A stretch of DNA of 63,742 nt, counting the filler, from Conidiobolus incongruus B7586 (taxonomy: Eukaryota): NCBI GenBank assembly GCA_000697335.1. It is 8 parts of 8 records of this genome, joined end to end, with 100 filler letters (N's around TTAATTAATTAA, not from the genome) between each part and the next. Parts side by side here need not be neighbours in the genome. Positions count along the whole stretch, not along the records: positions 32,808 to 37,362 come from JNEM01006194.1; positions 37,463 to 43,585 come from JNEM01006196.1; 6 more parts are not named here. One strand, given 5' to 3'. The position numbers and the translations under genes were made by a program. Below the pieces are notes generated by a model that did no database searches, was not told the origin of the DNA, and was given only the letters and a program-made list of their open reading frames with translations. Numbering within the stretch: position 1 is the first letter of the stretch; each line of letters opens with the position of its first letter. Below are positions 1,546 to 61,493 of the stretch, in pieces.

Positions 1546-1636
1546 TTTTGAGTCAAATTTTTATATTTAAAATCCAGTGAAATTCAGTTGATTTATATAC
1601 ATACAATACTCAGTTATATTTTTTCAAAAATATATA

Positions 1637-4125: not shown

Positions 4126-4611
4126 TTAAAAGTGAAATAATTTGCTAACATCTTCTAACAAAGTGAGAGGGTCAGTTTCGTAAACGATGGAACCAAGTTC
4201 CAAAAGATCTTTAGCGACGGCGTGTTGGAATTCAGTAATATCTTTAAAATCACCTTTGCTGTACTTGAGATTTACTTCATCCCACCATTCAGCAACTTGT
4301 TCCAATTGTTCGTAGGAAAGTTCATTCAAGCGGACATAAAAGTCATAGGATAAATTCAAGAGATTTTGGATGTTATGAACATCTTCATTTAATTCTTTGA
4401 CAAATTGTTCCTTGGAAAGCTTGGCCAAATTTTGAATGTAGTTATAGGCTTCGTCGGGATTGACAAATGGCTTGATATCAATAGGAGAAGTTAAAGGTTC
4501 GTCAACTGAAGCATTTTGACTGGAACCAGCCTTGAGATGATTAATGTTGGTGGGAAAAGCAAAAATAGAGCCACAAGCTAACAAAGAGGTGAAAAAAGTA
4601 GTGAATTTCAT
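4126..4611 (-). CDS. Small secreted protein, copy 2 (161 aa)
   Basis: Paralogue of 1057-1545 with signal peptide and the same conserved blocks, ending IVYETDPLTLL. Confidence 0.9.
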   Translation of the reverse strand: MKFTTFFTSLLACGSIFAFPTNINHLKAGSSQNASVDEPLTSPIDIKPFVNPDEAYNYIQNLAKLSKEQFVKELNEDVHNIQNLLNLSYDFYVRLNELSYEQLEQVAEWWDEVNLKYSKGDFKDITEFQHAVAKDLLELGSIVYETDPLTLLEDVSKLFHF

Positions 4612-6961: not shown

Positions 6962-7450
6962 CTAATGCTTGAATAAAGAGCTAAAGTAGGTTAACACTTG
7001 ATCAGCATCAGCTTGATAAACAATCTGAGCAAGCTCTAATAAATCTGGGAGAACTAGTTGCTCCAATTGATTTGGATCGGTAGGGAGAGGTTGAGAGTAT
7101 TTGGGAGATACTTTAGCCCACCATTGATCGAGTTTATTCTTTTGCTCAGGAGTTAAATTTTCTAGTCTCTCAGCAAAGTCATAAGAGATATCCAAAACAG
7201 TTTGGACTTGTTCAACAATTTTGTTGACTTCTTTGATGAAAGTGTCCTTGGGAATCTTAGCTAATTGCTGGATTCCATCATAGATTTGTTCAGCATTAAC
7301 ATAAGGTCGAATATCATAATTGGCATCAATGGTATAGTTTTCAGGAAGAGTCAAGTTCTTATTGACATCAGATTGAGCATTTTGATTGATAGGACTAGCA
7401 AAGATGGCACCACAGGCTAAAACGGAAATAGCAATATTAGAGAATTTCAT
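6962..7450 (-). CDS. Small secreted protein, copy 3 (162 aa)
   Basis: Signal peptide MKFSNIAISVLACGAIFA and the family blocks. Confidence 0.9.
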   Translation of the reverse strand: MKFSNIAISVLACGAIFASPINQNAQSDVNKNLTLPENYTIDANYDIRPYVNAEQIYDGIQQLAKIPKDTFIKEVNKIVEQVQTVLDISYDFAERLENLTPEQKNKLDQWWAKVSPKYSQPLPTDPNQLEQLVLPDLLELAQIVYQADADQVLTYFSSLFKH

Positions 7451-8487
7451 TATTAATATTTAATATATTGGTGCTGCTTATTTCATTTCTACATCCTCTT
7501 TATATAACATTCAAAAGAACAACTATAGAGCCAAAGAAATCAATGTTTATTTGATTTACTACTAGGAATATGATCGGAACAATGAAATTAATCCCATTTG
7601 AATAAAAATCAAATCCCTGTGATTTCATAAATTTAATCAACTACGCTATATGTAATATTATTTTTGATTTAAAAATCTATTATCATTTTTAAATAATATA
7701 AGGATATCGATACCAAGGGGCTAAATTCAATAATAATAAATTCATTTTAATATTGGTTGTATGGCATTATTCTATTTGAATCTGAGAAGGGTAAAATTGT
7801 TTCAATAATATCGAATAATAATCATTTTTAAATCCTAATAAAATTAGTATATTTATAGAATATTTTAAAACTTGAAATATTTTATTTTATATTTATAGTC
7901 AGGTATACATTATTATATGTATAGCATTCCTTATTGTGTTATCAATCTCATGAATGAAATAATATAACAGATTTAAACGTTTTTATATCAGTTATATTTT
8001 ATTGACAGTATAAAATTTACATTTAAAATTAAATTGGCTAACGTAGAATATCTCGAAAAAAAAGTTATATATCCGAAAATTCATTATTGACCTTAACATG
8101 ATAAAAATATTGAAATATTATGTTCAAACTTTGAAATAGCAGAGATTTTCCAGGTTTATTATATTTTATGATTAAAAAAAATAAAATTTAGTATTAAAGT
8201 AATTATAAAGATTTTATTTGATACGAAAAAAAGTAGAATAATTAAAAAAATGAATATATTAAAATAGTATTAATTCAGATTTATTTTTAGTTTATTCGTA
8301 ATATTTCTTAGTAAGTTCAATAAGTAAAAAGTGATGAAATTTGATTACAAATAATCGCATATTACTGTAAAAAGTATTCAATTATAGTAATTATTATTTT
8401 TGATTCAATTAACTATCTTTATATTATAATAATTTATTAAATTAATATACATTCATTTTAACAATAAGTAATGAGTTATCTTGATAA

Positions 8488-8988
8488 TTAAGCCGAGGTT
8501 GAGTTTTTCAATAACGAGTTGAAATAGGCCAACACTTGATTAGCATCAGCTTGATAAACAATCTGAGCAAGCTCTAATAAATCTGGGAGAACTAGTTGCT
8601 CCAATTGATTTGGATCGGTAGGGAGAGGTTGAGAGTATTTGGGAGATACTTTAGCCCACCATTGATCGAGTTTATTCTTTTGCTCAGGAGTTAAATTTTC
8701 TAGTCTCTCAGCAAAGTCATAAGAGATATCCAAAACAGTTTGGACTTGTTCAACAATTTTGTTGACTTCTTTGATGAAAGTGTCCTTGGGAATCTTAGCT
8801 AATTGCTGGATTCCATCATAGATTTGTTCAGCATTGACATAAGGTCGAATATCATAATTGGTATCAATGGTATAGTTTTCAGGAAGAGTCAAGTTCTTAT
8901 TGACATCAGATTGAGCATTTTGATTGATAGGACTAGCAAAGATGGCACCACAAGCTAAAACAGAAGTAGTAATAGTAGAGAATCTCAT
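8488..8988 (-). CDS. Small secreted protein, copy 4 (166 aa)
   Basis: Core nearly identical to copy 3; N-terminus identical to copy 5. Confidence 0.9.
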   Translation of the reverse strand: MRFSTITTSVLACGAIFASPINQNAQSDVNKNLTLPENYTIDTNYDIRPYVNAEQIYDGIQQLAKIPKDTFIKEVNKIVEQVQTVLDISYDFAERLENLTPEQKNKLDQWWAKVSPKYSQPLPTDPNQLEQLVLPDLLELAQIVYQADANQVLAYFNSLLKNSTSA

Positions 8989-10801
8989 TGTGAATTAAAT
9001 TGATTTGAATTGAATACTAAATAATTGAGGCTTCAGACGACCGCTTAAATACTTATCAGTCATAATGTATATCCTGTTTACATTTATACTATCATTTCAA
9101 ATATATTAAATCATTGATATTCTAATAACTGCGCTCTGAGAATCATAATGATGGGTAAATTTAATTCGCTTATTTCATCAAATGTGTTTTGATCCAAAAA
9201 TTCAAGAACCTTCAAATTGCGGAGTAAAAATTGATCCAAATATACAATTATCAACCATCAATGAAATCATATTTCCAAATTTGGTTGAGCTGTAAAATAG
9301 AAAAACAGCAATTATGGATGCGTAAATAAAAATACTAAGAAAATTTTGGATTAATTCTAGGCTCAGTTTATAATCTATATATATTTAGAAAAATATTTCT
9401 AATTGATTTGTAATAGGTTTAAGAAAATTTATAATATTATTACGATTAATAATTGTTTTTTATTTTTGCTTGAAAATAAAAGATATTCCAGTGGATATCT
9501 CATGAACAAACATTAGAAAAAAATATGTAACATACTCTAGAAAATATCAACATTTTTAAAGTCTGTAATTTTAGAATTATTTTTCATGAGTTTGGAAGAT
9601 ATTATTATATGATATAAGCTCTTAGAGAATATATAATGTAATTGTTTCATGAAGTTATCAATATATCTAATATCTTTAATATTCAAAAAATTGAAAATAA
9701 TATTATCATGATGTGAACATAAATCGCATTATACAATAATATAAAATTGTTAATACTTAAAATATATTAAATTACTCTAAATAGTTTTCATTTACAAAAA
9801 TAGTACTATTCGATTCATTGGTGTTATAAATGCATTCACAATTTAGCTATATTAAATACATACAATTCATAGTGGATTGTAGGATAAAATATTTCAAAAA
9901 TATATATCTTGTTATATATCAATCAAGTGAATAATATTATACATCATTTTATCTCACAACTAACTCAAATTCAAGTGTTATATGTATCAATTTCCAAGAT
10001 TATAAAATTTGAATATACTCATTGACATAATAAATAAGTGATAAACATTTTTTGAATGATATTTGGATAATAATGAGTACTAGTATATTGCATTATATAA
10101 ATTTAAATTGTACTCAATAGCTCTTTCATTAAATAATAATATATGTCCAAAAATCTTTATTTAATATTAATTTAGATTTTATTCATTTTATTACAGAATA
10201 AATATATAGTTGATTCAAAGCATTCATAATATCCTAGTTGGCATCATCCGACTCTAGCATTATACACTTTATGAAATACCAATACTATAATTTTGAAACT
10301 ACGTTTGAAAAATGAATCAAGTTCTATTCCAGACCTCAGTCACATCTCTCAATACCAATATTTTTCGATGATTAAGTTATAATTAAAAGGACATATAATT
10401 AATACCACTGAATTCATATAACCAAGTTACAAAATGATTAAAATTTATTAAAAGCTCATTTAATAAAAAATTATCAAATATATTCCAAATATTGGTTACT
10501 TATAAATCAATTAAAATTTGCTATTGATGTATTTCCCCCACAATATCTGTGCAAGTAGAATATGATCTTAGTTTTAAAGTGCAAAGCACATAGTATTTTA
10601 AAATGAATAAATCATACTTGTTTTTGATTTCATTTTACTTGATTTCGCGAAATAATAATTCCTCAGAAAAATATCAAATTATAAACTGGTTAATAATATA
10701 TACAAAATAGTTAATGATATTATAGGAATCAGATCAAAAAGTATAAAAGAGGAGAATATATACCAAATCAAAGATATCATCAAATATAATTTTAATTCAC
10801 A

Positions 10802-11290
10802 ATGAGATTCTCTACTATTACTACTTCCGTTTTAGCTTGTGGTGCCATCTTTGCCAGTCCTATCAACCAAAATGCTCAAACTGGTGTCAATAAGAACTTG
10901 ACTCTTCCTGAAAACTATACCATTGATACCAATTATGATATTCGACCTTATGTCAATGCCGAACAAATCTATAATGGAATTCAGCAATTAGCTAAGATCC
11001 CCAAGGACACTTTCATTAAAGAAGTCAACAAATTTGTGGATCAAGTCCAAACTGTTTTAGATATCTCTTATGACTTTGCTGAGAGACTAGAAAATTTAAC
11101 TCCCGAACAAAAGAATAAACTTGATCAATGGTGGGCCAAAGTATCACCCAAGTACTCTCAACCTCTCCCTACCGATCCAAATCAGTTGGAAAAATTAATT
11201 CTTCCAGATCTATTAGAACTTGCTGAGATCGTTTATCAAGCTGATGCTAATCAGTTGTTAAAACAATTCAACACCTTATTTAAGCAATAA
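10802..11290 (+). CDS. Small secreted protein, copy 5 (162 aa), inverted relative to the others
   Basis: Family paralogue. TATA-like gtataaaaga at 10741-10750. Confidence 0.9.
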   Translation: MRFSTITTSVLACGAIFASPINQNAQTGVNKNLTLPENYTIDTNYDIRPYVNAEQIYNGIQQLAKIPKDTFIKEVNKFVDQVQTVLDISYDFAERLENLTPEQKNKLDQWWAKVSPKYSQPLPTDPNQLEKLILPDLLELAEIVYQADANQLLKQFNTLFKQ

Positions 11291-14211: not shown

Positions 14212-15329
14212 TTTTATTATCAGCATAATAAATTATATTTTTTAATTGAAGATTAAACTATTTACCATAAAAATCTCAATTAAAATTCTTAGAATTTTAA
14301 TCACTTGATTATTTTATCTTAATTTGGCCAACTTTGGTATTTAGAGAACTTGAATAATTTATTCAATATTTTTGATGTGGATATATATATATATATATAT
14401 ATCAAGAAACACTAATATTAATATAATTTTATAAGAGTTACTGTTATAAGAAAAATAAATCTTATTGAAGTAAATTTAAATTTTTAAATGTAATTTATAA
14501 TCAATAAATTTCGACTTTTTAGAACCACCGAATATCTTTTAAGGTTTTGATAATATATTCCTTGAAGTACTTTATCTACAAAGCTCAATTATTAATTGGA
14601 CAGATGCAAATTTATAGAGATTTTGTAAATAATAGTGACATTATTATAATATATTTAATCAAAATTTATTTTCTAATTTTTGCTATTTTAAATTTCAACA
14701 ATATTGATTTTCAAAATATATATGGCATTTTGAATTCCAATATTTAATCAGTTGACTATTTACATTAATTGATACTTCAATGGGTTATTACATATAAGTC
14801 TCTCATCACAAATATCTATTCCAAAACTCAAATATCTTTAATTTTTTTAATTTTATACTAATTTTTATGATTGATATTCTCTTACTTAAAAGTATCGAAA
14901 ATATTTTATAGTATTTGAAATAGAATTTTTTTATGAATATATTTTATCTAAAAGAATTTCATAATTCTACTTAATGAAAATTATATTTTTGATAAATTTG
15001 AGAACTTATGATTATTTTTAATTTCATATTTTACGAATTTCTAGTAAAAATGATATAATAATTATATTAAAATCTATTCTTTATACTAATCAGATTTTGA
15101 AAAAAAATTATATGATTATTCATTTATTATCTTATATTACCTATATTATTTGATTTAAAAAATTTTTTAATTTTAAAATTTGATAATTAAATAAATAAAT
15201 AAATTAGTATAAAAAATAAACTATAAAGTTAAATTCACTTATTTATTTATAATTTAACCAATTTTTAATCAAACCCAGTTAAACTAGATTGAATAATTTA
15301 AGTATATTATTTTATTATAACTATATTTA

Positions 15330-15720
15330 TGTAAGTGTAGTGGTAGTTAAACCAATATAATATAGAGGAAGACTTAATATAAAAGTAATTTGGCACAAAA
15401 TATGGTGTGGTAATATGAGATGTAATGTGCAAATATAAACAAAGTTTAATTAAGCTTCAAACTGAGATGAGTCACTAATATATTAAGATTTATATTAGGC
15501 AGTGCTAATATATTATAGTATTAATAGAATGTAGTATTAATTTTAGAAGTAGTGTAAAAGATAAGAGATAGTAAGAATTGAGAAAAAAATCCTTATTTAT
15601 TAAATAATTTAATATTATTTATATAATTTAGTAATAAAAATATAAATTAATTATATGATTTATAGTTAATTGAATTATAAAGCAATATATATAAGAATTT
15701 AAAGAATTAGTCTCTTAATA
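15330..15720 (-). mobile_element. Solo LTR of the Ty3/Gypsy family found at 34-43.4 kb
   Basis: Aligns end to end with LTRs 37722-38120 and 43021-43416. Starts TGTAAG and is flanked by a perfect 5-bp TSD ATTTA (15325-15329 and 15721-15725). Confidence 0.9.
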
Positions 15721-15836: not shown

Positions 15837-15936
15837 NNNNNNNNNNNNNNNNNNNNNNNNNNNNNNNNNNNNNNNNNNNNTTAATTAATTAANNNNNNNN
15901 NNNNNNNNNNNNNNNNNNNNNNNNNNNNNNNNNNNN
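15837..15936. other. Artificial contig spacer
   Basis: N44 + TTAATTAATTAA (stop in all six frames) + N44. Confidence 0.97.
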
Positions 15937-25715: not shown

Positions 25716-26130
25716 AAAAAATAAATCAAGATGTTAAATTAAGCTAAATTAACTCCTTTTATAAATTCCTTTAAATATATATTTTTTTATAAGTAAATAT
25801 TAATTATTATATTAGATTATTATAATATATGTTATTTTTAATTAATATCTTAAGGAAAATTAATAAATAATAAAATTATATTATTTATCTAAATAAAACT
25901 TTTTTTAATTAATATTTTTAATATAATTAAAAAAAATATAATTATATATAGCAATTATAAGATATATAAAATCAAAATTATAAAAAATTTTTTAATTATT
26001 TTTAATTAAAAAAAATACCATATTTAATATATTTTATAGATTATTATTTATTTTATTATAATTGTTTTAGGTAATTAAAAACCAGCTTATAAGAAAGAAA
26101 ATTTTTATTAAAAAATTTAATTATTATATA
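25716..26130. repeat. Degenerate AT-rich interspersed repeat, uninterrupted homologue of 37463-37721 plus 43417-43585
   Basis: Shared anchors aaattaactccttttataaat and ttataattgtttt, with colinear similarity to both flanks of the Gypsy element. Confidence 0.7.
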
Positions 26131-27257
26131 ATATATTAAACTTCAGCCTTTAATAAAAAGAATTATTTTTAAGTCTTAGAAGTTTACTATTAGTAAAAAG
26201 TTACTAGTAATAAAAAAGAGTATTAATTTTTTATTTTATTTTTTTTATATGTTATATATAAAAAGTTGATTTTTTTTTCAATTATAAAAATTCCCATTAT
26301 TTAAATTACAAAATAATAATTCTGATCAAAAAGCAGTAAATTATAAAATATTTACAAAAAAAATCTTATACAACAAAATAAATTCAGATCAACAAATGCA
26401 AATTGTTTATCAATTATAATAATTGAAAATAAAAATTGAATAAATATAAATAATGGATATAATATTTTATAAAAAAGGGAAAAGAAAACAAGTAGTACGC
26501 TTAATTTACAAATTGATTTTCTAATTTATTTAGATTCTGTTAAATATTTGTGATATTATTTATATATGAACAGAGTTTATTTTTAATATGACAAATTTTA
26601 TTAGGAATATATTATCATTATACTTTGTATTAGAAAGTAAATATATTAAATATATATCAATAATACCAAATTTTAAAATATTAATTGGCAAAAACAAAAT
26701 TAGTAATATTTGGTTTAGTTATGTTCTTAAATTGGCGATTACTAAAATTATACGAATATAAAAACAGATTAGAATATGAAAAAAAATTGATCTAAATTTC
26801 AAGTTTTTAATGTTATAAATTAAAGTAAAATTTAGAATAATAATTTAATGTTGGATTGATATGATTGATGAGTTGGAGAAAAATCTATTGATCATAATTA
26901 AATGATGAAATATGAAATTAACTTTTGATACTCTAATGCAAAATGAAGGGAATACGAACGCTAGAAAGATTATATACTGGTAATTTAGCAAGCAATTGGG
27001 GTTGAGCTTGTTTTAGAGACTGCACTAAACAGAATAAGAACTATCTAACCCATAGATTGAACACGTGTGGGTTGGGAGGATGGCGGGAGAAAGTGAGGTG
27101 TTGACAGAATAATGATGAGGATAGATTGTATTGGATAAATTGTATTTTATTAAATGTTACCAAGTTAATTGAGAATGATCCAGTGATTATTTTAAGGGTA
27201 TGACTATGCAAATGTATTCCAATACAACCCATATGAGAATAGATAGTTGAAAGCAAA

Positions 27258-28946
27258 TTAGTATGATGGTGGGCAATTATCTATACGCCGTTGGAGATAG
27301 TCCCTCCATTCGGCTTCTTCTTGAGCTTTAGAGACCTTTTCGAATCTGAGAACTCCATCCCTACGTAATCTGTAAATGGTACCAAAGAATCGGAATCTAA
27401 AAATTTCGCCAGGGACTCTAGGTAACAAGCGATCAATGACTGTTGTTCTCAAGAAGAAGAGGACACACCATCCAACGACTACAATACCAAAAATCCACCA
27501 AACATTCTTATTATATACCCAAGGGTTCTTTTTAGTGTATTGTCCATGGATAAGATCATTGTAAACAGCAGTGAAAATAAGACCACCACCAACACCAGCA
27601 AGAGACCAAGCAGTCAAAATTACACCATGGCATGCACCAATGTTTTTAGGACCAAACATATCAGTTAAGAATGCTGGAATGACACCAAAACCACCTCCGT
27701 AAGATGCAGTGAGAATAAACATGGTGAATAAGAAAGCCCAATAAGTCTGAGTGGTTGTAATTGTAGAAAAGCATCCGAGAATAATGACTTGACATGTCAA
27801 CATAATGATGTAACAGTTCTTTCTACCTAAATAATCGGAAGCAACAGAGAAAATCAGACGACCTGCAAGATTGGCACCACCATTGATAGAAACAATAGTA
27901 CTGGCTTCTTCAGGGCTACGGTCAAACAGATCAGTAATCATATTAGAGAGACGAGAAATAACGACTAAACCAAAAATGGAGTTGGCAAAGAACATAATAT
28001 ACATCAAGCGGAATTCAGTTGATGTTAATGATTCAATTAAAGTCAATTTGATAGCTTTAGAACTGTCTGAGGAATTCTGGTTGGCGATAACAGCGTCGTC
28101 AGTGACAGTAACACCTTCTTCCTTGACTTGAGGAGAAGGAACAACACTTGGAGCTATAGTGAAACCAGGTGGAGGAATTCTCAAGACCATAGCACAGAGA
28201 ATCATAAGAACAAAGTAAACACATCCGAACACAACAAATGTCAATGGAAGGTCGACAGCTTGAATTAAAGGTAAAATAATTTTACCAACAGCGATGGAAC
28301 CAGCACCGAAACCGCATACAGCCAAACCTGAAGCTAAACCACGACGATCAGGGAACCATTTTTGTAAACAGGATACCGGAGAAATATAGCAAAGACCAAG
28401 ACCATAACCACCAACAACACCATACCCAATGAATACAAGCCAGATCTGCTTTGTGTAAATTGCAAGTGCAGTAAGAAGATTACCAATGAAGAATAGAGTT
28501 GTTCCTACGGTACATGCAAAACCAGGTCCATGACGTTCTAACCAGGGCCCCATAATAGCAGCAGATGTACCAAATAAACCAACAGCAATATAGAAGGTAA
28601 TAGGGGCCATAGCTTGATCACTGCCATAAATATAAATATCTATAGGCTTGTTAAAAACACTCCAAGCGTACAGAGAGCCACAGCAGAATTGGATAATGAG
28701 GGCAGCGGGCATACTGTACCAACGGTTGAATTTGACACCAGGTAAGAGCCATTCTTCACGTTTCAAAGTTTTTTCTGAGCGAATATACTCAGATTCACGG
28801 TAGTGCTTTTGAACGAGGCGTAAGAGAAAATTGGGCTGAGGACCAATATTAGTAGACTCCTGTTGATTCACTCCTGAATAGTACAAAGGAAGTTTAGTTA
28901 AATCATACTAATAATTGATAGTTGGATGAATACCTTTTTCATTCAT
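27258..28946 (-). CDS. MFS transporter, oxalate/formate antiporter (OFA)-like
   Basis: Exon 1 is 28946-28934, intron 28933-28874. Motifs GSLYAWSVF, KWFPDRRGLASGLAVCGFGAG, SDYLGRK, YGGGFGVIPAFLTDMFG; about 12 TM segments. Confidence 0.9.
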
Positions 28947-32807: not shown

Positions 32808-34003
32808 AATTATAAAAAAGATAAATTAATTTGTGATATTATTAGAATTATTAATGTTAGTTAATTTACTATAGCTAAAGTTATTAAGAATAATAATAAA
32901 AAAACATTTAAATTTAAATTTAAATATATTAAAATTATAAATAAATATAATAAGAAGTATATTTATAAGTTAGTTAATATAAAAAAATATAATATTATTG
33001 TAGAAATATAATAGAAACTATAAAACTATATAAAAATATTAGTTAACACTAATACTATTATATATACTTTATATTAACATAGATATCACTTATATTTTAA
33101 GAAAAAACACCTTTAACTAAAGAAATCCTATTATAAAACTAAATAAAAGTTTAAATGTTATTATTAATATTAAACTAAAACTAAATAGAATAAGGTTATT
33201 TAGTTTAATAAAACAAAAATATACTTTAGTAAATTTAATAAAAAAACTAAATACTTTAGAAAAGATATAAAACTACTTTGTGATTATTATATTAATTTTA
33301 CCTAAAAGTATAATAATAGGTTAATTATTATTTAAAGATATATATTATCTTTAGGTATAAAATATCTTTATAAAAATAATAAAGGAATTAATATTAAAAT
33401 ACACTAAAGTATTTTAAATAATAAATTAAAAAAAACTATTGAATAATATAGGTTAAATAAATCTAATGTTATTTTCTAATAAGATAATATTTCTTATTAT
33501 ACTATAACATCTATTACTAAATAACTTAAAAATAATAAGATAATAGTTATAAAGTAGTTTTTTTAATCTCTTAACCTTAATCTAATTAAATACCTTTAGG
33601 ATTAATTAAAAAAAGCTATTAAAGTTTTCCCCCCAGTAAAAAATTTAGATCAACTTTAAAAATATATTTAAGAAGTATAAAACAAGATCAACTTTTTTTA
33701 ATATAAGAAGTTAATTGATTTTATACCTTATAAACTTAAAGAAGTTAGAAAAGTTAAAGGTAGATATACTAAGATTTAATTTTTTTTATCACTAAAAACC
33801 TATAAATTTCTAACTCACCTTAAATAAAATTTAAAGATTTATATTTTAGCTAATAAATAAATAAATATTATCATTTAATAATATATATAATTAATAAATA
33901 TAATAGATTTTAATTATTTAAGTTTATTTTATTAAATATTAATTAAGTTGTTAGTAAAAATATAAATGTTTTTAATTTTATAACTTACTTTTATAAGTTA
34001 ATA
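32808..34003 (+). mobile_element. Tc1/mariner (DD34E) DNA transposon, hypermutated, 5' end in gap
   Basis: 33468-33610 reads VIF**DN...K*FF*SLNLNLIKYL*D*LK. Reversing only C>T/G>A changes restores VIFQQDN...KWPPQSPDLNPIEHLWDQLK. Exactly 34 codons lie between D (33483) and the E position (33588). C-terminus KGRYTKI* at ~33779; TIR-like end at 33984-34003 followed by TA. Confidence 0.88.
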
Positions 34004-37000
34004 TATATTTATTTATTATTTATCTATTAATACTTTATCTGTTAACTTTAATAAATTTATATCTAATAACCACTTCTTATACAATATAATAAATTAATTT
34101 GCTAATGTTTTTAAACTTATAGATAAATTACCTTTTAAATATAATATTAAATATAATATTAAATTATTCCCTAGTATACAATTATATTTAAAATTTATTT
34201 ACTATTTATCTCTTAAATAATATTAAACTTTAAAAGAAAAAATCTAAAAATATTTAAAAATGGGTATATTAAACCTTTTTCCTCACTATAGAAATTTTTA
34301 ATTCTCTTTGTAAAAAAAGCTAATGGTAGTTAAAGATTATAAATTAACAATTATATTTTAAATTCTAAAATTATTAAAGATAAAACCCTATTACTAAACC
34401 TATATAATATTAAAGATAAACTACTTAAATCAACTATATTTACTAAATTAAATATTAAGAATAGATATTATAACATTAAATTTGAAGAAAATTTTATCCC
34501 TTTAACTACTTTTAATATTTTTTTAAGCTACTATAAATTTATAGTTATAAACTTTAAATTATATAATATCCCTGTAACTTTTACTTAATTCATCAATTCC
34601 CTTTTTAACCCTGTTTTTAATAACTTTATTAATATTTGCTTTAATAATATTTTAATCTATTTAAAAACTAAAAAAGAATATATTTAATATATAAATTAAA
34701 TTTTATAAATTATTCAAGAATATAAATTACCTTTAAATTATCAAAATACATCTTTAGTGCTTTTTCTATCTCTTTCTATAGTTATATTGTTTTTTTTAAA
34801 GAATTAATATTAATCCAACTAAACTCAATAATGTTAAAGCTTTTATTATATCTATAAATAAAAATCAGTTTATGTTTATACTTAGATTATTAAATTACTT
34901 TAAAGATTTCATTGATTTTTTTGTTGAACTTATTATTCTTTTTACTAATCTCTTAAGGAAAAACTCTTTTTTTGAATAAACCCTACTATATACTTTTTAC
35001 ATAAATGCTTTGATTTTCTATATTACCAATGCTTTTATTTTATTTATCTTTAATCTAAAACTACTTATTATTATTTTTACTAACTCTAATTCTTTTGTAA
35101 TTAGTAGATAATTTGCTTATTTTGAATTTAATTTATATTTTACCCTTTAACTATAAGATAAGATAATAAATAAAAGAGAATAAGTTAAGTTTAACCTTGT
35201 AAATATTACCTTAAAACTAATAATATTCTAGTTAAGAAAAATAAAACCAATTAAATTAAAATATCTAGTTTATAAATAAAAACTTTTTGCTTTGGTAGAA
35301 ATAATTAAAATCATTTATATTTTTTATTTTATAATCTTTTCTTAATATTTACAGATTATAAATTACTTATCTGCTTAAATATTTAGAAGTATTTATTAAG
35401 AAAATAAGTTAAATAGATTAAAATTATCTAAGCTTACCTTTTTTTATTTAATATCTTTTAGGTTAATAAAATTATATTATAGATACCTTATTAAAAAATC
35501 TTACATATTTATCTTTTTGTTTTAATTATAAAAACCCAGCAAATATTAACTTAATGATTATTAATAAAGGAAATAAAGAATTTATTAAACTATTTTAAAA
35601 AACATTACCAAATAATAATTTTTTTATATTAGTTAAAGAAAAACTCTTTAAACTATTAGAAAACTAATTAAAATATATCAAAAAATTTAAAATTATTAAT
35701 AACTTATTATATTATAATAATTATCTATATATTCCTAATATTCTTAAGATTTAAAAAATAATATTTAATGAATATTATAATTTACCTGTTAGAAAACATT
35801 AAAACTAATTAAAAACTGCTGAGAGAATAAAAATAAAGTATTACTAACTTTCCTTAGTTAAATTAGTTTAGAAATACATTAATACTTATAATATATATTA
35901 AAGAACTAAATATAGTACTCAACTAAAATATAGTAAACTTATTCCTCTATAAGTCTTTAATAAAACTTAGCAACAAATCCAACTTAATTTCATAGAAATC
36001 TTTAAATCAACAAATAATTATAGTAACTTACTAATTATAATTGATTTATTTTCTAAATATATTTATTTTATTCCTTGTTTCAAAACTTCTATAGTTAAAG
36101 ATATTACACAATTATTATTTTTTAATACCTTTACCTATTATAGAATTCCACAAACTATTATATCTAACAAAGATATACAATTCAACTTTTGATTTTAGAA
36201 GTTACTATCTTTTTCCTTTAAGATTAATCTAACTATATCTACTTCTAATTATTATTAAATTAATAAACTTATTGAAAAGACTATTAAAACTTTAAAATAA
36301 ATAATTAAAACTTATGTTAATATTAATTAGTTGAATTAAGATACTTATATCTACTAACTCTAATATTTATTCAACACCTCTATTAATAAATTAAGAAGTT
36401 TTAGCCTTTATTTCATTAATTATTGTAAATATCCTAACTTAATAACTGCTTTAAAACTCTAAATCAATTTATCTTTAGATATTGTTGAATTTTAATCTAA
36501 TATCAAGTATATTAATTCCCTTATTAAATTTAACTTAAAAGAAAATTAAAGAATTATAGAATAACAATACTTAAAGTTATCTAGAAATCCTTTTAAATAT
36601 AAAATTAATATGTTTATATATTTAGAACAATCTACCTTTAAACCTACCCTATTTAAATCTAGCTTAAATCCAAAATACTTACTATTATATTATAATCTTT
36701 ATAAGATTTAATTTATTGATTTAAATTTTGAAAATATTATCTTAGAATTACCTCTAACTTTAAAAATCAACCTTACCTTTTATATATCCAAAATTAAACT
36801 ATATTTTAAAGATTTTAATATTTTTCTTAATTAATTAAAAGCTTTAAAACTAGATCTAATTATTAATTAAGATAGAAAAGAAAAATACTATGTTGATTAT
36901 ATAATTAAATCTTAATTTGTTAGGAATAAGCTTTATTTTTATATAAAATAGATGGGTTATCCTATTAAAGAAGTTATATAAGAACCCTTAGAAAATATTA

Positions 37001-37362
37001 AGAATATTTAAGCTTATTATACCTATTTGCAAAAATTTAAAGAGTATGTCTTCTTTAAGAAATTTACTAAGGGAGTATTAAAAGACTAGTTTTTTAAATT
37101 CTTATATATATTTCTTTATAATTTAATTAACTATAAATTATATAATTAAATAATATTTTTATAACTAAATTAATTATATAAATAATATTAAATTATCTAA
37201 TAAATTAGTTTTTTTCCCTTTTAATTCTTTTTATTTTTTATCTTTTATATTATTTTTAAAATTAAGTTTATATTTTATTAATATTATAATATATTGATGA
37301 TTCATTTTAATTTAAAGCTTAATTAAACTTTATTTATATCTTCATATTATTTTTTATTTTAT
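34004..37362 (+). mobile_element. Ty3/Gypsy chromovirus copy A (RT-RNaseH-integrase-chromodomain plus part of the 3' LTR), hypermutated
   Basis: Relics ILFVKKAxGS*RL (~34300-34340), YLDD position at 34637-34648 and chromodomain K*MGYP...*EPLENI (~36945-37000). PPT aagggag then LTR from 37076. Reverse-complement homologue of copy B (~37835-41190). Confidence 0.9.
37076..37362 (+). repeat. 3' LTR of Gypsy copy A, truncated by gap
   Basis: Starts tattaaaagactag immediately after the polypurine tract and matches the other LTRs. Confidence 0.85.
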
Positions 37363-37462
37363 NNNNNNNNNNNNNNNNNNNNNNNNNNNNNNNNNNNNNN
37401 NNNNNNTTAATTAATTAANNNNNNNNNNNNNNNNNNNNNNNNNNNNNNNNNNNNNNNNNNNN
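37363..37462. other. Artificial contig spacer
   Basis: N44-TTAATTAATTAA-N44. Confidence 0.97.
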
Positions 37463-37721
37463 TACAAAAATATTAATGAAGTTATTAGATTAAGTTAAAT
37501 TAACTCCTTTTATAAATACTTTTAAATAATTATTATATTAATAAATAAATATTAATTATCCTTATAAATTATAATAATATATGCTATTCTTATTTAATTT
37601 TTAAAAGAAAATTAATTAATAATAAACTTTAAATTGTTTTTTTAAAAAAATTATTTTTAGTTAGTATTTTAAATATAATTTAAAAAAATATTAATTTATA
37701 TAATAATTATATAATATATAT
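37463..37721. repeat. Left part of host repeat interrupted by Gypsy copy B
   Basis: Colinear with 25716-25968. Confidence 0.7.
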
Positions 37722-38120
37722 TATAAGTATAATGGTAGTTAAACTAATATAATATAGAGGAAAACTTAATATAAAAGTAATATGGTGTAGAGTGTAGTAA
37801 TAAAATATGGTTGTGATATGCAAGTATAAATAAAATTTAATTAAGCTTTAAACTGGGGTGAGTCACTGATATATTAAGATTTATATTAGGTAATGCTAAT
37901 ATACTATCATATTAATAGGAAGTAATTTTAATTTTAGAAGTAGTATAAGAGTAAAAAATAGTAAAAATTGAGAAGAAAAAGAAAAGCTTAATTTATTAGA
38001 TAATTCAATGCTATTTATATAATTAATTTAACTATATAAGTATAAATTAATCATATAATTTATAGTTAATTAAATTATATGAAAGTATATATAAGAATTT
38101 AAAGAATTAGTCTTTTAATA
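37722..38120 (-). repeat. 3' LTR of Gypsy copy B
   Basis: Direct repeat of 43021-43416, adjacent to the PPT. Confidence 0.9.
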
Positions 38121-41100
38121 CTCCCTTAGTAAGTTTTTTAAAAGAGATACACTCTTTAGATTTTTGCAAATAGGTATAGTAAGCTAAAGTATTCTTAATA
38201 TTTTCTAGGGGTTCTTATATAACTTTTTTAATATAATAACCTATTTATTTTATATAAAAATAAAACTTGTTCCTAATAGATTTAAATTTAATTATATAAT
38301 TAATATAGTATTCTTTTTCTCTATTTTAATTAATAATTAAATTTAATTTTAAAGCTTTTAATTGATTAAAAAAAGTATTAAAATCTTTAAAGTATAATTT
38401 AATTTTAGATATGTGAAAAGTAAAGTTGATCTTTAAAGTTAAAGATAATTCTAAAATAATATTTTTAAAATTTAAATCAATAGATTAAATTTTATAAGGA
38501 TTATAATATAATAATAAGTATTTTAAATTTAAGCTAGATTTAAATAAGGTAGGTTTAAGGGTAGATTGTTCTAAGTATACAAATATATTAATTTTATATT
38601 TAAGTGGATTTCTAAATAACTTTAAATATTGTTGTTCTATAATCCTTTAATTTTTTTCTAAGTTAAATTTAACAAGGGAATCAATATACTTGATATTAGA
38701 TTAAAATTTAATAATATTTAAAGATAAGTTGATTTAAAATTTTAAAGCAATTATTAAGTTAGGATGTTTATTATAATTAATGAAATAAAAGTTAAAACTT
38801 GTTGATTTATTGATAAAGATATTAAATAAATATTAAAGTTAGTAGATATAAGTATCTTAATTTAACTAATTAGTGTTAATATAAGCTTTAATTATTTGCT
38901 TTAGGTTTTTGATAGTTCTTTCAATAAATTTATTGGTTTAATAATGATTAATAGTAGATATAGTTAAGTTAACCTTAAAGGAAAAAGATAATAACTTCTA
39001 GAATTAAAAGTTGAATTATATATCTTTATTAGATATAATAGTTTATAAAATTCTATAGTAGGTAAAGATATTAGAGAATTATAATTATACAATATCTTTA
39101 ACTATAGAAGTTTTGAAATAAGGGATAAAATAAATATATTTAGAAAATGAATTAATTATAATTAATAAATTATTATAATTATTTGTTGATTTAAAAATTT
39201 CTATAGAATTAAATTAGATTTGTTATTAAGTTTTATTAGAAACTTCTAAAAGAATAAGTTTATTATATTTTAGTTAAGTATTATATTTAATTCTTTAGCA
39301 TATATCACAGGTATTAGTGTATTTCTAAACTAATTTAATTAGGGAAGGTTAGTAATACTTTATTTTAATTCTTTTAACAATTTTTAACTAGTTTTAATAT
39401 CTTCTAATAAATAAATTATAGTAATCATTAAATATTGTTTATTAAATCTTAAGAATATTAAGAACATATAGATAATTATTATAATATAGTAGGTTATTGA
39501 TAATTTTAAATCTTTTAACATATTTTAATTAGTTTTCTAATTATTTAAAGAGTTTTTCTTTAATTAAAATAAAGAAATTATTATTTGGTAGTGTTTTTTA
39601 AAGTAGTTTAATAAATTTTTTATTTCCTTTATTAATAATTATTAAGTTAATATTTGCTGGGTTTTTATAATTAAAATAAAAAAATAGATATATAAGATTT
39701 TTTAATAAGGTATCTACAATATAATTTTATTAACCTAAAAGATATTAAATAAAGAAAAGGTAAGCTTAGATAATTTTAATCTATTTAACTTATCTATTTA
39801 ATAAATACTTTTAAGTATTTAAATAAATAAGTAATTTATATTTATAAATATTAGGAAAAAATTACAAAATAAGAAATATAAGTGATTTTTAATTATTTCT
39901 ACTAAAGTAAAAAGTTTTTATTTATAAACTAAGTATTTTAATTTAGCTGGTTTTATTTTTCTTAACTAGAATGTTATTAATTTTAAGGTAATATTTATAA
40001 AGTTAAATTTAACTTATTCTCCCTTATTTATTATTATATCTTATAGTTAAAAAGTAAAATATAAATTAAATTTAAATTAGGTTAACTATCTACTAATTAT
40101 AAAAAAACTAGTGTTAGTAAAAATAATAGTAGGTAGTTTTAAATTAAATATAGATAAAGTAAAAGCATTAATAATATAGAAAATTAAAATATTTATATAA
40201 AAAGTATATAGTAGGGTTTATTCAAAAAAAGTTTTTCTTTAAGAGATTAGTAAGAAAAGTAGTAAGTTCAATAAAAAAATCAATGAAATTTTTAAAGTAA
40301 TTGAATAATCTAAGTATAAATATAAACTAATCTTTGTTTATAGTTATAATAAAAACTTTAACACTATTAAGTTTAATTAGATTAATATTAATTCCTTAAA
40401 AAGAAATAATATAACTATAAAAAAAATAGAAAAGATACTAAAGATATATTTTAATAGTTTTAAAAATAATTTATATTCTTGAATAATTTATAAAACTTAA
40501 TTAACATATTAAATATATTCTTCTTTAGTTTTTAAATAGATTAAGATATTATTAAGGTAAGTAATAATAAACTTATTAAAGATAAAGTTAAAAAAGGAAT
40601 TGATAAATTAAGTAAAAATTACAAGGGTTTTATATAATTTAAAGTTTATAATTATAAATTTATAGTAGCTTAAAAGTGTATTAAAAATAGTTAAAAGGAT
40701 AGAATTTTCTTCAACATTAATATTATAATATCTATTCCTAACATTTAATTTAATAAATATAATTGATTTAAGTAGTTTATCCTTAATATCATATAAGTTT
40801 AATAATAAAGTTTTATCCTTAATAGTTTTAAAGTTTAAAAAATAATTGTTAATATATAATTTTTAACCACCATTAACTGTTTTTACAAAGAAAATTAAAG
40901 ATCTTTATAGTAAAGAAAAAAGTTTAATATTTATTTTTAAGTAGTTTTTAGATTTTTTTTAAAGTTTAATATTATTCAAAAGATAAATGGTAAGTAAACT
41001 TTAAATATAATTATATACCAAAGAATAATTTAATTTTATATTTAATATTATATTTAAAAGGTAATTTATCTATAAGTTTAAAAACATTAGCAAATTAACT

Positions 41101-43010
41101 TATTATATTATATAAGAAGTGGTTATTAAATATAACTTTATTAAAGTTAACAAATAAAATGCTAATAAATAAATAATAAACAAATATATATCTTTATAAA
41201 TTATTAAAGTTTTTAATTAGTTTTTTATATTAATTTTTGCTTATAATAATAAAATTATTTGCTACAATTATAGAATTAGTATTAAGTATAATATTTAATA
41301 ATTTTATAGTAAGGTAATATAGATTTTTTAAGATTAATTTTATTATTTTATTTTAGAATATAAAAGAAATAGATTTGTAACTTTCTAAGGTAATATTTAT
41401 AAATATAAAACTATGATATTTAAACTAATTTTAACCTAGTATAAAATTATAACTAATATTACCAACTAAGAATTTAATATATTAAGAGTAATTAAAAAAT
41501 AATAATAAATATTTAAATATAATACCAAATTTTTATTTTATTAAGTTGTTAGTATATTTAATTATTAAGTTACTTTTTTAAATAGGTAAAGATAATTTTA
41601 TAATAATAATAAAAAAGATAATACAACTAAAGCAACTAAAATTTATTAAAATACTAACAAGTTTATCTATAAAAAAATTAATTAATACAAACAATAAAGT
41701 AATAGTTAAAGGTAAAAAATCACAAGATAAATTAGTGACTAGAATATTTTTAGTTTCTAGTAGTTTAATTAGTTAGATTTCTCTAGTATATATAATTTAA
41801 TTTATAGAATCATTAGTTTATTAAAGCTTTTGTAGATTAGATTAAAACCTATTAACTAATTGTAAAAAAGTGATTCTAAGGTTATATTAATATTATTCAG
41901 GTTTAATTTATGGTTAGTAAGTTAAGATTCTTAAAAATTAAATAGATGTTGTTTTTTTAAAAGGTATTTATTAGCTTTATAATTAACTTAAGTTTTTTAG
42001 TAATAATAACAACTTTTATTTACTCTTAAGTAAACTTTAACTTCTTTACTAAAGGTTTTCTTATAAAGCTTTAAAATAGAAACATTTATTATTTAAAACT
42101 TAAGTAGGTTAGAGTAAATTTTAAAAGATTAATTTTTAAGATAAAAAGATTTAATTATAGAGTAAAGGATATTATTAATTATAATTGCTATATTATAAAT
42201 GTTAGAAAAAAATATATTATCAAAGTATTCCCTACTAACTAATTAGAGTTTTATTTGAAGATTAAAGTATTGTAATAATTTCTAGATTTGTTTTTTTTCA
42301 GTGATATTTAATATATTTAAATATATCTTATTAAATTTCTCAATTAATTATCTTGTAGAAGTTTTTTATTTAACTTAAAAAAGCTTTTCTTTTGTTAATT
42401 AAATTTAATCTTTTAAGTAATACCTTTCTTTAAGGGTTTTGTTTAATTGTTTAAAAGTTTATATCTTTGTAATAAACTATCCTTTTAAAGATTTTTTAAG
42501 ATTAAGCTTGTAATAAATTAACTACCAGGTATAAGTAGTATTGTTAAAAAAAAGATAATTTAAAGATATTCTTTCAATATCAATTAAAAATTAAATTACA
42601 ATAATTCTTTATAATTTTAAAATAGTTTTCAAGCTTATAAAGGTTTATAAAACTATTATAAGTAGTTAATTTATTTTTAAAGATACTAAAAAGATAGTTT
42701 AATATATTAACAATAATAAAGTAGCTGGTTTGTTAAATTTAAGCTTTTTGAGATATATTTTTTTTAATCAAAAGTTGTCTAATATAAGTTTCTTAAAGGG
42801 TAGTAAATTTTTAAAAGATAAAGTTTTAAATTCACTCAGTAATTAAGTTATTATTATTATTAAAATAGTATAAAGGTATCTTTTTTAGTAATATTATAGT
42901 ATATAGTATTAAATCTAAATAAAATAAATTATAGATAAAATTTAAAATAATAATAAATAGATTTGATATAAATAGTTATTGATTTCTAATAGGTTTTTTG
43001 TAGTTTTATT

Positions 43011-43020
43011 ATTGCTACCA
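43011..43020 (-). promoter_or_regulatory. Primer-binding site (TGGTAGC, compatible with initiator tRNA-Met)
   Basis: attgctacca directly abuts the 5' LTR; the reverse complement begins TGG. Confidence 0.7.
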
Positions 43021-43416
43021 TATAAATATAGTGGTAGTTAAACTAATATAATATAGAGGAAAACTTGATATAAAAGTAATGTGATGTAAAATATAATAAT
43101 ATAACATGGTTATGATGTATAAGTGTAAATAAAGTTTAATTAAGCTTTAAACTAGTGTGAGTCACTAATATATTAAGATTTATATTAGATAATATTAATA
43201 TACTATAATATTAATAAGTAGTTTTAATTTTAGAAATAGTGTAAAAGTAAAAAATAGTAAGAACTGAGAGGAAAAAGAAGAACCTAGTTTATCAAATAAT
43301 TTAATATTATTTATATAATTAATTTAACTATATAAGTATAAATTAATCATATAATTTATAATTAATTGAATTATATGAAAATATATATAAGAATTTTGAG
43401 AACTAGTCTCTTAAAA
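43021..43416 (-). repeat. 5' LTR of Gypsy copy B
   Basis: Direct repeat of 37722-38120, adjacent to the PBS. Confidence 0.9.
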
Positions 43417-43585
43417 AATATAAAATTAAAGTTTTAAAAAATTTTCTAATTAAAAATAACTAGAAATAACTATTATATCTAGTATATTCTTTAGATTATA
43501 ACTTATATAGTTATAATTGTTTTTAATAATACAAAATTAATCTATAAAAATAATTTTTATAGGAAAATTAAATTAATTTAAAAAA
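43417..43585. repeat. Right part of host repeat interrupted by Gypsy copy B
   Basis: Colinear with ~25963-26130. Confidence 0.65.
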
Positions 43586-59805: not shown

Positions 59806-61493
59806 GTCTAGGACCCGAATACATTGATGTCACATGGGGTGCTGGTGGTACTACTAGTGATCTTACTGTCGAAATCTGTACCACAGCACAACAAGTACAC
59901 GGTCTTGAGACAAGTATGCATTTAACGTGTACTAACATGCCTAAGGAAAAGATTGATATCGCTCTCAAACAAGCTAAACAAGCTGGTATTCAGAATATTT
60001 TAGCACTACGTGGTGATCCTCCTAGAGGACAAGAAAACTGGGAAAAATGTGAAAATGGCTTCAGCTATGCTGTAGATCTAGTTAAATACATTAAGGAACA
60101 ATATGGAGACTATTTCTGTATCTCGGTTGCCGGTTATCCTGAAGGTCACGTCGATTCCGGTGATGATAAAGATATTGATATTCAGTACTTGAAGCAAAAA
60201 GTTGATGCTGGTGCTGAATACATTGTCACTCAACTTTTCTATGATGTACCTCTCTTCTTGAACTGGGTTCAAAAATGTAGGAAAGCGGGTATTACTGTAC
60301 CCATTGTACCTGGTATCATGCCTATTCAGAGTTATAATGGATTCAAGAGAATGACTACTCTTAGTAAGACCATTGTTCCTCAATATATTCACGATGCACT
60401 TGATCCCATTAAGGACGATGATCAAGCAGTCAAGGATTACGGTGTACAACTCGCTATCGATATGTGTAAGCAGATTATGAATGCTGGTCTCTTAGGTTTC
60501 CACTTCTATACCTTGAATCTCGAAAAGAGTGTAAGGCTCATTCTTGAAGGCTTACATTTTGTTAACCCTGCTGAACTCTACAGACCTCTTCCTTGGAACC
60601 CCTCATTGGCTAAAAACCGCGAAAACGAAAGCGTACGCCCTATCTTCTGGAAGAATCGTACTCAATCTTACATCAGTAGAACAGAACAATGGGATGACTT
60701 CCCTAACGGTCGTTGGGGTGACTCCCGTTCACCCGCTTATGGTGAATTAGATGGTTACGGTATTTCTCTTAAGTTTAACAAGCAGCAAGCTCTCGAGATC
60801 TGGGATCATCCTACAACTGTTGAGCAACTTTCGGACTTGTTTGCTAAATATTGTCAAGGAAAAGTTTCCGCTCTTCCATGGTGTGATCAATCACTCGACA
60901 ATGAAACTCGTACTATTGAAAAGCAGTTAGTTCAAGTCAACCATATGGGTTACTTGACTATTAACTCTCAGCCCTCTGTAAATGGAGTCAAGTCCTCCGA
61001 TCCCATTTTTGGATGGGGTCCTAAGAATGGATATGTTTACCAAAAAGCCTATATCGAATTCTTCTGCAGTCCCGAAAAACTCGAGAAACTCGTCAAAGAA
61101 ATTGTCAAAGATCCTCAAGTTACCTACTATGCAGTCAACAAACATGGTGATTTGAAGACGAACAACCAAGTAGAGGGTCCCATTGCTGTCACTTGGAGTG
61201 TTTTTCCTGGAAAGGAAATTGCCCAGCCTACCATCGTCGAAGCCGCCAGCTTTATGGCCTGGAAGGACGAAGCCTTTGAACTTTGGAGCCAATGGGCTAA
61301 ATTGTACGATAGAGGCTCCGATAGCGAAAAACTCTTTGAAGATATTCGCGATAATTGGTTCCTCGTTAACGTAGTCGACAATGACTTCACAGCTCATAAC
61401 AAGATCTTCCAAATTTTTGGTATTGAACAAGATCAAGTCACTCAAAACGGTTTCGCATCCCAAAGGCTGACACCTGCTCCCGATTATCTTTAA
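59806..61493 (+). CDS. MET13: Methylenetetrahydrofolate reductase, 5' end in gap
   Basis: IDVTWGAGG, MHLTCTN, ILALRGDPP, VAGYPEGH, VTQLFYD, HFYTLNLE, and regulatory domain WDDFPNGRWGDSRSPAYG. Confidence 0.95.

What the first reader, a model, noticed from the sequence alone, without database searches (positions are those of the whole stretch)
32808..43585. RIP-like repeat hypermutation (CpA/TpG and CpG loss) in what looks like an early-diverging fungus
Seen: unrelated transposon families are erased in the same way. In the Tc1 catalytic motif every deviation from consensus is a C>T or G>A change (caa>taa, tgg>tag, t-gac>t-aac, cca>cta, t-gaa>t-aaa, cac>tac), and the Gypsy YLDD became YLNN. Hand alignment of ~125 bp of copies A and B (36950-37075 vs 38121-38246) gave about 14 transitions and 2 transversions. 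By eye I found no CG dinucleotide in the ~10.8 kb, and surviving C/G lie mostly in CT/CC/AG/GG contexts, while neighbouring genes retain CA/TG/CG. Established: this is the footprint of Repeat-Induced Point mutation, characterised in filamentous ascomycetes (RID/DIM-2 dependent), with RIP-like patterns in some basidiomycetes. Passive decay of CpG methylation would not explain the CpA loss. Inference: if the host is zoopagomycete/Conidiobolus-like, this is an independently evolved or deeply ancestral repeat mutator with a CpR-like target and an unknown enzyme.
Basis: partly seen in the sequence, partly recalled or inferred. Interest (0 to 1): 0.88.

Follow-up and report, generated by a model that had tools for sequence, protein, structure and literature searches.

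The report
RIP-like transposon hypermutation in Conidiobolus
Transposon copies in this early-diverging Conidiobolus fungus have lost every CG and most CA dinucleotides through C-to-T mutation on both strands while genes are spared, likely the work of a methyltransferase-driven genome defence resembling the RIP system that is so far accepted only in ascomycetes.

Summary
Observation confirmed and extended. The two contigs (32808-37362, 37463-43585) hold a dead Tc1 transposase and two copies of a high-copy chromodomain Ty3/Gypsy element. They contain 0 CpG in 10,678 nt, CpA/TpG O/E 0.5; non-repeat tiles of equal GC hold 42 CpG in 10,400 nt, CpA O/E 1.15. The two copies differ by 354 transitions and 48 transversions. 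Against an intact relative, 224 conserved codons changed by C>T/G>A alone and 2 the reverse way; 86% of CpR and 47% of CpY cytosines are lost. One element's two LTRs differ by 43 transitions and 4 transversions, so mutation followed insertion. The host is a Conidiobolus close to C. coronatus (MTHFR 90% identical), not an ascomycete. Corrections: the target is not CpR-only; the 'neighbouring genes' sit on other contigs; a linked gene duplicate 96% identical over 489 bp is unmutated, which argues against Neurospora-type homology sensing; an index-level RIP signal is already published for Zoophthora radicans. Best reading: a transposon-targeted, cytosine-methyltransferase-coupled mutator (0.5). 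Enzyme, methylation and timing are untested; no genome was available.

The parts
33150..33761 (+). Dead Tc1/mariner transposase catalytic domain (Sleeping Beauty-like), many stops; may extend further left
   Evidence: E 8.1e-11 to SB100X over query residues 10-204; DDE_3 weak, E 0.017; 32808-33790 has 0 CpG and CpA O/E 0.38
33987..37323 (+). Gypsy copy A: pol (RT, RNase H, integrase, chromodomain) and part of the 3' LTR from about 37076; 5'-truncated
   Evidence: RVT_1 E 5e-7, Chromo E 3e-4; colinear with intact relative P0273; 87% identical to copy B; 46 stops in 864 aligned codons
37722..43414 (-). Gypsy copy B: full-length chromodomain Ty3/Gypsy element with both LTRs
   Evidence: 56 stops in 915 aligned codons; 38,313 Logan contigs of run X1 lie on it
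37722..38120 (-). 3' LTR of copy B; polypurine tract just upstream (38121-38127); both termini read TA where TG..CA is canonical
   Evidence: sequence, LTR alignment; the canonical TG..CA rule is recalled
43021..43414 (-). 5' LTR of copy B
   Evidence: 43 transitions and 4 transversions against the 3' LTR
37467..37720 (.). Left piece of an older unclassified repeat into which copy B inserted
   Evidence: 81% identical to 25716-25968; alignment
43412..43583 (.). Right piece of the same interrupted repeat
   Evidence: 73% identical to 25958-26131
25716..26131 (.). Uninterrupted copy of that repeat, on the contig that carries a Conidiobolus MFS gene; same footprint
   Evidence: 0 CpG (1.2 expected), CpA O/E 0.39 over 25716-26240; MFS placement
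15329..15720 (-). Solo LTR of the same Gypsy family on a gene-bearing contig; milder footprint
   Evidence: 80% identical to B's LTRs; 0 CpG (3.7 expected), CpA O/E 0.89
6962..11290 (.). Control: three linked gene duplicates (6962-7459, 8488-8994, 10796-11290), intact and not hypermutated
   Evidence: 96% identical over 489 bp, 1.5 kb apart; 14 transitions, no C>T direction, 2 differences in a core of about 410 bp; CpA O/E 1.18
59808..61493 (+). MTHFR gene used to place the host
   Evidence: 90% identical to C. coronatus KXN68030.1; tree
27258..28907 (-). MFS transporter gene used to tie the repeat family to the host
   Evidence: best hit 86% identical, in a cluster that holds C. coronatus KXN73357.1; next hits 62% or lower in score order

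Best explanation
Transposon copies in this Conidiobolus fungus were hypermutated C-to-T on both strands after insertion, most strongly at CpG and CpA, likely by a cytosine methyltransferase of the DNMT1/DIM-2 class that is likely recruited to silenced transposon chromatin rather than to any pair of similar sequences. Shown: repeat restriction, direction, both strands, context order, post-insertion timing, host lineage. Inferred: copies are first marked as heterochromatin; the enzyme methylates CpG most, then CpA, then CpT/CpC; the modified cytosines are fixed as thymines far faster than background, through deamination on the enzyme or failure to repair T:G pairs; repeated rounds take each copy from host-like GC to about 15% and fill its ORFs with TAA/TAG stops. 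Expressed gene duplicates would escape because they are not heterochromatic. The outcome is that of RIP; the trigger probably is not.
For: Direction: of 551 codons aligned to conserved positions of an intact relative, 238 are unchanged, 224 need only C>T/G>A, 2 only the reverse, 3 mixed, 84 a transversion. Context: cytosines fixed by the amino acid are lost at 146 of 169 CpR and 107 of 227 CpY sites (Fisher p 1e-16), and at 43 of 48 codon-fixed CpA vs 42 of 92 codon-fixed CpC sites (p 2e-7); YCR 103 of 112. Of 26 Trp positions, 14 are TAA, 10 TAG, 2 TAC, none TGG or TGA. Both strands: 94 of 164 sense C and 159 of 232 sense G lost. After insertion: LTR pair 43 transitions, 4 transversions. Family-wide: 1,342 of 1,443 counted variable places in run X1 are transitions, and other copies' LTR letters still carry CG, CA and TG (tables 1 and 5c). 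At one Trp codon the TpG guanine is below 2% of depth, while ApG/GpG/CpC sites nearby keep their base in 92-99%. Repeat-restricted. Gene duplicates spared. Precedents: a Dim2-dependent mitotic CA>TA mutator in Z. tritici (PMC8016269, passages); heterochromatic repeats mutated without RID through DIM-2 in Neurospora (PMC11969663, passages); RID homologues not listed for any zygomycete (PMC5751038, passages); DNA_methylase-domain genes in all entomophthoralean genomes examined (PMC11105155, passages).
Against: No enzyme, methylation or expression data: no genome is held. The Z. tritici mutator spares CG, whereas CG is fully lost here, so it is not the same process. [quoted passage not shown] Losses in A and B are correlated (odds ratio about 5-6), so part of the damage may be shared or mis-assigned and rates cannot be read off exactly. 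The spared duplicates are one family, short, and under selection. Some sites break the simple order: an ACA cytosine is kept in 50-67% of depth and the second G of TGG in only 21-41%. The duplicates show low CpG O/E (0.31), which hints that they are not wholly untouched.
Confidence: 0.5

Rival explanations
1. True RIP: DNA-DNA homology is sensed at the sexual (zygospore) stage and both copies are mutated in bursts. The gene duplicates survive because they are near a length threshold, were homogenised since the last cross, or because mutated alleles were purged.
For: The scale and CpA preference match RIP. Weak strand-specific clustering: same-strand neighbours within 30 nt are lost in the same copy in 347 of 626 pairs (55% vs 50% in shuffles, p 0.009), opposite-strand ones in 232 of 471. 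The short solo LTR is less mutated than the long internal regions. RIP index 24% of the genome in Z. radicans (PMC11105155).
Against: A family of five linked duplicates of different ages (69-96% identical) has intact ORFs and no C>T direction. The clustering is small and reached p<0.05 at 2 of 4 distances tried. No RID reported in zygomycetes.
Confidence: 0.25
2. Passive decay: transposons are densely methylated in all contexts (CG, then CA, then others), and spontaneous deamination of 5mC with poor T:G repair does the rest, with no dedicated mutator.
For: CpG goes first (solo LTR: 0 CpG but CpA O/E 0.89). All contexts are hit. Repeat 5mC in CG and CHH is known in the zygomycete Phycomyces (PMC11258239, passages).
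Against: Magnitude: about 90% of CpA and 46% of CpC cytosines are lost while the copies differ by transversions at 1.5% of columns; in the LTR pair, 17 of 27 CpR and 23 of 56 CpY sites differ against 4 transversions in 382 columns. That exceeds the roughly 10-30-fold excess I recall for methylated CpG in mammals and plants (recalled, not from a call). 5mC is described as scarce in Zoopagomycota.
Confidence: 0.2
3. A cytidine deaminase edits retrotransposon cDNA or other single-stranded DNA.
For: A mild 5' preference (YpC 175 of 252 vs RpC 78 of 144).
Against: Both strands are hit; the two LTRs of one element differ, which editing during reverse transcription would not give; a DNA transposon and a non-coding repeat carry the same footprint.
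Confidence: 0.05

Closest known systems
Repeat-induced point mutation (RIP) of Neurospora crassa and other Pezizomycotina (RID- and DIM-2-dependent)
   Same: Repeat-restricted C:G>T:A hypermutation on both strands, CpA strongly hit, raised TpA/ApT and low (CpA+TpG)/(ApC+GpT), transposon ORFs destroyed.
   Different: Host is Entomophthorales; CpG fully lost and about half of CpC/CpT lost; a linked 96%-identical gene duplicate is spared; RID not reported in this lineage; link to sex untested.
Dim2-dependent mitotic CA>TA mutator of Zymoseptoria tritici (PMC8016269, passages)
   Same: C>T changes concentrated in transposon regions with CA preferred; methyltransferase-linked; needs no meiosis.
   Different: There over 98% of C>T changes are at CA and CG is spared; here CG is eliminated and CpY is half lost. 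Different subkingdom; enzyme unknown here.
RIP-index signal in Entomophthorales (Zoophthora radicans 24.2%, E. maimaiga 5.7%; PMC11105155, passages and supplement 1b)
   Same: Same order of fungi; same inference of RIP-like mutation outside Dikarya.
   Different: That result is a window-based dinucleotide index the authors flag with major caveats; neither C. coronatus nor N. thromboides is ticked for the RIP panel. Here direction, context, timing and a GC-matched control are measured.
TpCpG hypermutation in Pucciniomycotina (PMC3318451, passages) and CG deficiency in basidiomycetes and some lower fungi (Clutterbuck 2017, recalled; seen only as a search term matching other papers)
   Same: Repeat-associated C>T loss of CpG outside ascomycetes.
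   Different: Those patterns centre on CpG; here CpA is lost almost as fully and CA/TG is depleted rather than enriched.

Membership tests
RIP (Neurospora type) | C:G>T:A transitions in large excess and directional | tested here: met
   354 transitions vs 48 transversions; 224 vs 2 polarised codons of 551
RIP (Neurospora type) | Restricted to repeated DNA | tested here: met
   GC-matched non-repeat tiles: 42 CpG, CpA O/E 1.15; repeats: 0 CpG, about 0.5
RIP (Neurospora type) | CpA preferred over other non-CpG contexts | tested here: met
   43 of 48 CpA vs 42 of 92 CpC; CpG is lost at least as fully
RIP (Neurospora type) | Acts on integrated double-stranded DNA, both strands | tested here: met
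   LTR pair 43 vs 4; sense C and sense G both lost
RIP (Neurospora type) | Triggered by sequence homology alone, so linked gene duplicates of several hundred bp are also hit | tested here: not met
   489-bp, 96%-identical duplicate 1.5 kb apart: C>T/G>A 6, A>G/T>C 7, ORFs intact. One family only; the threshold of about 400 bp is recalled
RIP (Neurospora type) | Strand-coordinated bursts of mutation | tested here: inconclusive
   55% vs 50% same-copy among same-strand neighbours within 30 nt, p 0.009; not significant at 60 and 150 nt
RIP (Neurospora type) | Depends on RID/Masc1 (and DIM-2) | not testable with these tools
   no genome held; published search lists RID only in Dikarya plus a bacterial-like chytrid gene
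RIP (Neurospora type) | Occurs premeiotically in the sexual cycle | not testable with these tools
   needs progeny sequencing
Dim2-type mitotic mutator (Z. tritici) | C>T almost only at CA, CG spared | tested here: not met
   0 CpG left; 107 of 227 CpY lost
Dim2-type mitotic mutator (Z. tritici) | Coincides with 5mC and needs Dim2 | not testable with these tools
   no methylome or proteome
CpG-only methylation decay | Loss confined to CpG, with gain of TpG/CpA | tested here: not met
   CpA/TpG O/E 0.5; 43 of 48 codon-fixed CpA lost
Chromodomain Ty3/Gypsy retrotransposon | LTRs, polypurine tract, RT-RNase H-integrase-chromodomain order | tested here: met
   several Pfam scores are below the curated cut-offs because the ORFs are degraded

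The most novel reading that the evidence does not exclude
Conidiobolus has an active, enzyme-driven repeat mutator as strong as ascomycete RIP that works without RID and distinguishes transposons from gene duplicates. It would be either an independent invention in zygomycetes or the ancestral DIM-2/DNMT1-type mutator from which RIP arose, overturning the view that such defences are confined to Ascomycota and showing that they need not block evolution by gene duplication.
Probability: 0.45. Interest if true: 0.88.

Novelty: new variant of a known kind. Interest (0 to 1): 0.7.

Why it matters
A 2025 survey of over a thousand fungal genomes concluded that ascomycetes are unique in showing RIP-like signatures and scored C. 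coronatus 'no_rip' (PMC12543289, passages and supplement files 12-13). A close relative of that species shows a RIP-strength footprint once copies are aligned and polarised. My inference is that AT-enrichment screens are blind in genomes whose non-coding DNA is already about 85% AT, so the taxonomic range of these defences is undercounted. The same supplement lists 0 repeats of 1 kb or more at 95-100% identity and 555 at 80-95% for C. coronatus, which fits the same process there. Conidiobolus grows in culture and many species form zygospores readily (recalled), so the questions of how old RIP is, whether it needs RID or sex, and whether it must cost a fungus its gene duplicates become directly testable.

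Tried and rejected
Whole genome: none held, so no genome-wide copy alignment and no search for RID, DIM-2, DNMT1, DNMT5 or deaminases. DNA of the intact relative: one metagenome scan with P0123 found 34 pattern matches and no confirmed relative; polarisation is therefore at protein level. Word-based homologue search with the Tc1 remnant: 138 candidates, none scored. Sequencing runs: no RNA holder listed; the 4 holders are one sample and may be the window's own source, so they show other genomic copies and are not independent support. Of three runs with the same species label from other studies, two were laid (X5, X7) and gave 0 and 6 short pieces; this proves nothing about absence. The short-stretch lay gave only 9 variable places, too few for a context table. 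Context counts from the A-B pair alone (CpA 106 of 149, CpT 209 of 392) understate the bias because sites lost in both copies are invisible. Rejected: general AT drift; CpG-only decay; ascomycete host or contaminant (MTHFR and MFS both Conidiobolus-like, and the repeat family shares a contig with the MFS gene); editing during reverse transcription. The MTHFR tree is the quick tree of 49 of the 121 sequences held, made before the C. coronatus protein was fetched; the careful search did not finish. Bewick et al. 2019 is not held. Paper searches for a prior report in Conidiobolus listed none; subscription papers (including Clutterbuck 2017) and three large supplement tables of PMC12543289 (s034, s036, s042, which may hold its gene presence and full k-mer data) could not be read and may bear on novelty.
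Full report
Layout. The window is 8 contigs joined by N44-TTAATTAATTAA-N44 spacers. The finding covers two whole contigs, 32808-37362 and 37463-43585, so the genes elsewhere are not physical neighbours. No whole genome is held.

Anatomy. The first contig holds a dead Tc1 transposase (33150-33761, E 8e-11 to Sleeping Beauty) followed by a 5'-truncated Ty3/Gypsy element, copy A (33987-37323, +). The second holds a full-length copy B (37722-43414, -) with two LTRs, inserted into an older repeat whose uninterrupted copy lies at 25716-26131. RT, RNase H, integrase and chromodomain are recognisable and colinear with an intact relative, P0273, found through a search of 1.84 billion proteins. The family is abundant: 38,313 Logan contigs of run X1 lie on copy B. 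A solo LTR lies on a gene-bearing contig at 15329-15720.

Observation. There are 0 CpG in 10,678 nt (57.7 expected), CpA/TpG O/E is 0.48-0.51 and CpT/CpC are enriched. The control is 52 of 252 non-repeat tiles, chosen for GC of 18% or less (10,400 nt, GC 14.8%, equal to the repeats): they hold 42 CpG and CpA O/E 1.15. AT drift does not explain the pattern. In run X1, 1,342 of 1,443 counted variable places on copy B are transitions (the tool says some differences were not counted).

Direction and context. I aligned both copies codon by codon to P0273, using the four alignment blocks above 60 bits plus the largest A block (5 of 7 blocks), and kept positions conserved in at least half of the relatives. 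Of 551 codons, 238 are unchanged, 224 need only C>T/G>A, 2 only the reverse, 3 mixed transitions and 84 a transversion. Because transitions keep the purine/pyrimidine class of a neighbour, CpR versus CpY can be scored without knowing the ancestor: 146 of 169 CpR and 107 of 227 CpY cytosines are lost; codon-fixed CpA 43 of 48, CpC 42 of 92; YCR 103 of 112. Of 26 Trp positions, 14 read TAA, 10 TAG, 2 TAC and none TGG or TGA. Of 102 in-frame stops, 87 are TAA, 14 TAG and 1 TGA; GC at codon positions 1 and 2 is 0.14-0.20 against 0.44 and 0.31 implied by the intact protein. CpG was present in the ancestor: other copies' LTR letters still show it (table 5c). The order is therefore CpG and CpA well above CpC/CpT, with all contexts hit. 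A nine-site table from all copies agrees at a Trp codon and shows exceptions.

Timing. The two LTRs of copy B, identical at insertion (established LTR biology), differ by 43 transitions and 4 transversions; 17 of 27 CpR and 23 of 56 CpY sites differ. Both strands are hit, and a DNA transposon carries the same mark. The process acts on integrated DNA. Losses in A and B are correlated (odds ratio 5-6), which may reflect shared history, site effects or ancestor errors, so exact rates are not claimed.

Host. MTHFR is sister to Neoconidiobolus plus Entomophthoraceae (SH-aLRT 98, quick tree) and 90% identical to C. coronatus KXN68030.1. The MFS gene, on the contig that also carries the repeat flanking copy B, has its best hit (86%) in a cluster with C. 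coronatus KXN73357.1. The host is a Conidiobolus near C. coronatus but distinct from it.

Evidence against textbook RIP. Five linked gene duplicates have open frames. Two are 96% identical over 489 bp and 1.5 kb apart; polarised on a third they show 6 C>T/G>A and 7 A>G/T>C changes, with only 2 differences in a core of about 410 bp. By recalled Neurospora rules such a pair would be hit. Selection, recent homogenisation or a longer threshold could hide this, and their CpG O/E is low (0.31). Strand-specific clustering between A and B is weak (p 0.009 at 30 nt, 0.04 at 10 nt, not significant at 60 and 150 nt).

Mechanism. I favour a cytosine methyltransferase of the DNMT1/DIM-2 class, recruited to silenced transposon chromatin and mutagenic well beyond chemical decay (0.5). 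Precedents are the mitotic Dim2-dependent CA mutator of Z. tritici (PMC8016269, passages) and RID-independent, DIM-2-dependent mutation of heterochromatic repeats in Neurospora (PMC11969663, passages). Rivals are homology-sensing sexual RIP (0.25), passive deamination of all-context 5mC (0.2) and a deaminase (0.05). Enzyme, methylation, chromatin state and life-cycle stage are all inferred.

Prior knowledge. PMC11105155 (passages, supplement 1b) reports a RIP index in 24.2% of the Z. radicans genome with major caveats, says RIP had only been observed in Dikarya, and did not include Conidiobolus in that panel. PMC12543289 (passages, supplement rows) finds ascomycetes unique and scores C. coronatus 'no_rip'. 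PMC5751038 (passages) lists RID homologues only in Dikarya plus a bacterial-like chytrid gene. PMC3318451 (passages) describes TpCpG hypermutation in Pucciniomycotina. PMC11258239, PMC7862722 and PMC13297926 (passages) give background on 5mC in early-diverging fungi. Eight searches listed no report for Conidiobolus; subscription papers were not searchable. Unchecked notes of this scan describe similar footprints in Dimargaris and Endogonales; they are leads, not support. Look-ups by place, words and sequence found nothing for this genome.

Verdict. The feature is real and strong. It works like RIP in outcome but is not filed as RIP, because the homology-trigger test was not met and RID and sexual timing could not be tested. 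It is a new variant of a known kind in a lineage scored negative by the current kingdom-wide survey. Interest 0.7.

Noticed in passing
window 1057-11290: Tandem family of five small (about 165 aa) proteins with a signal-peptide-like start, 69-96% identical in DNA; two members differ at only 2 sites over about 410 bp, which suggests recent gene conversion. Family not identified.
   Followed up: partly
window 6962-7459, 8488-8994, 10796-11290: These duplicates have CpG O/E 0.31, against 0.55-0.82 in two single genes, and 5 of 9 CpG sites differ between two of them: perhaps a mild CpG-only effect on gene duplicates. Numbers are small.
   Followed up: partly
window 27258-28907: The MFS transporter's hits include springtail proteins (Orchesella, Allacma, Folsomia) at 60-63% identity among zygomycete hits: possible fungus-to-springtail gene transfer or contamination.
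   Followed up: no
window 15837-15936 and six similar places: N44-TTAATTAATTAA-N44 spacers join 8 separate contigs; several begin or end inside genes.
   Followed up: yes
window 43686-49086: Chitin synthase with an N-terminal myosin-motor-like region, cut at the contig end (read from the translation; not scanned).
   Followed up: no
window 1-223: A further, more decayed fragment of the same LTR family (71-72% identical) at the start of contig 1, with a weaker footprint (CpA O/E 0.87 and 1 CpG over 1-352).
   Followed up: partly
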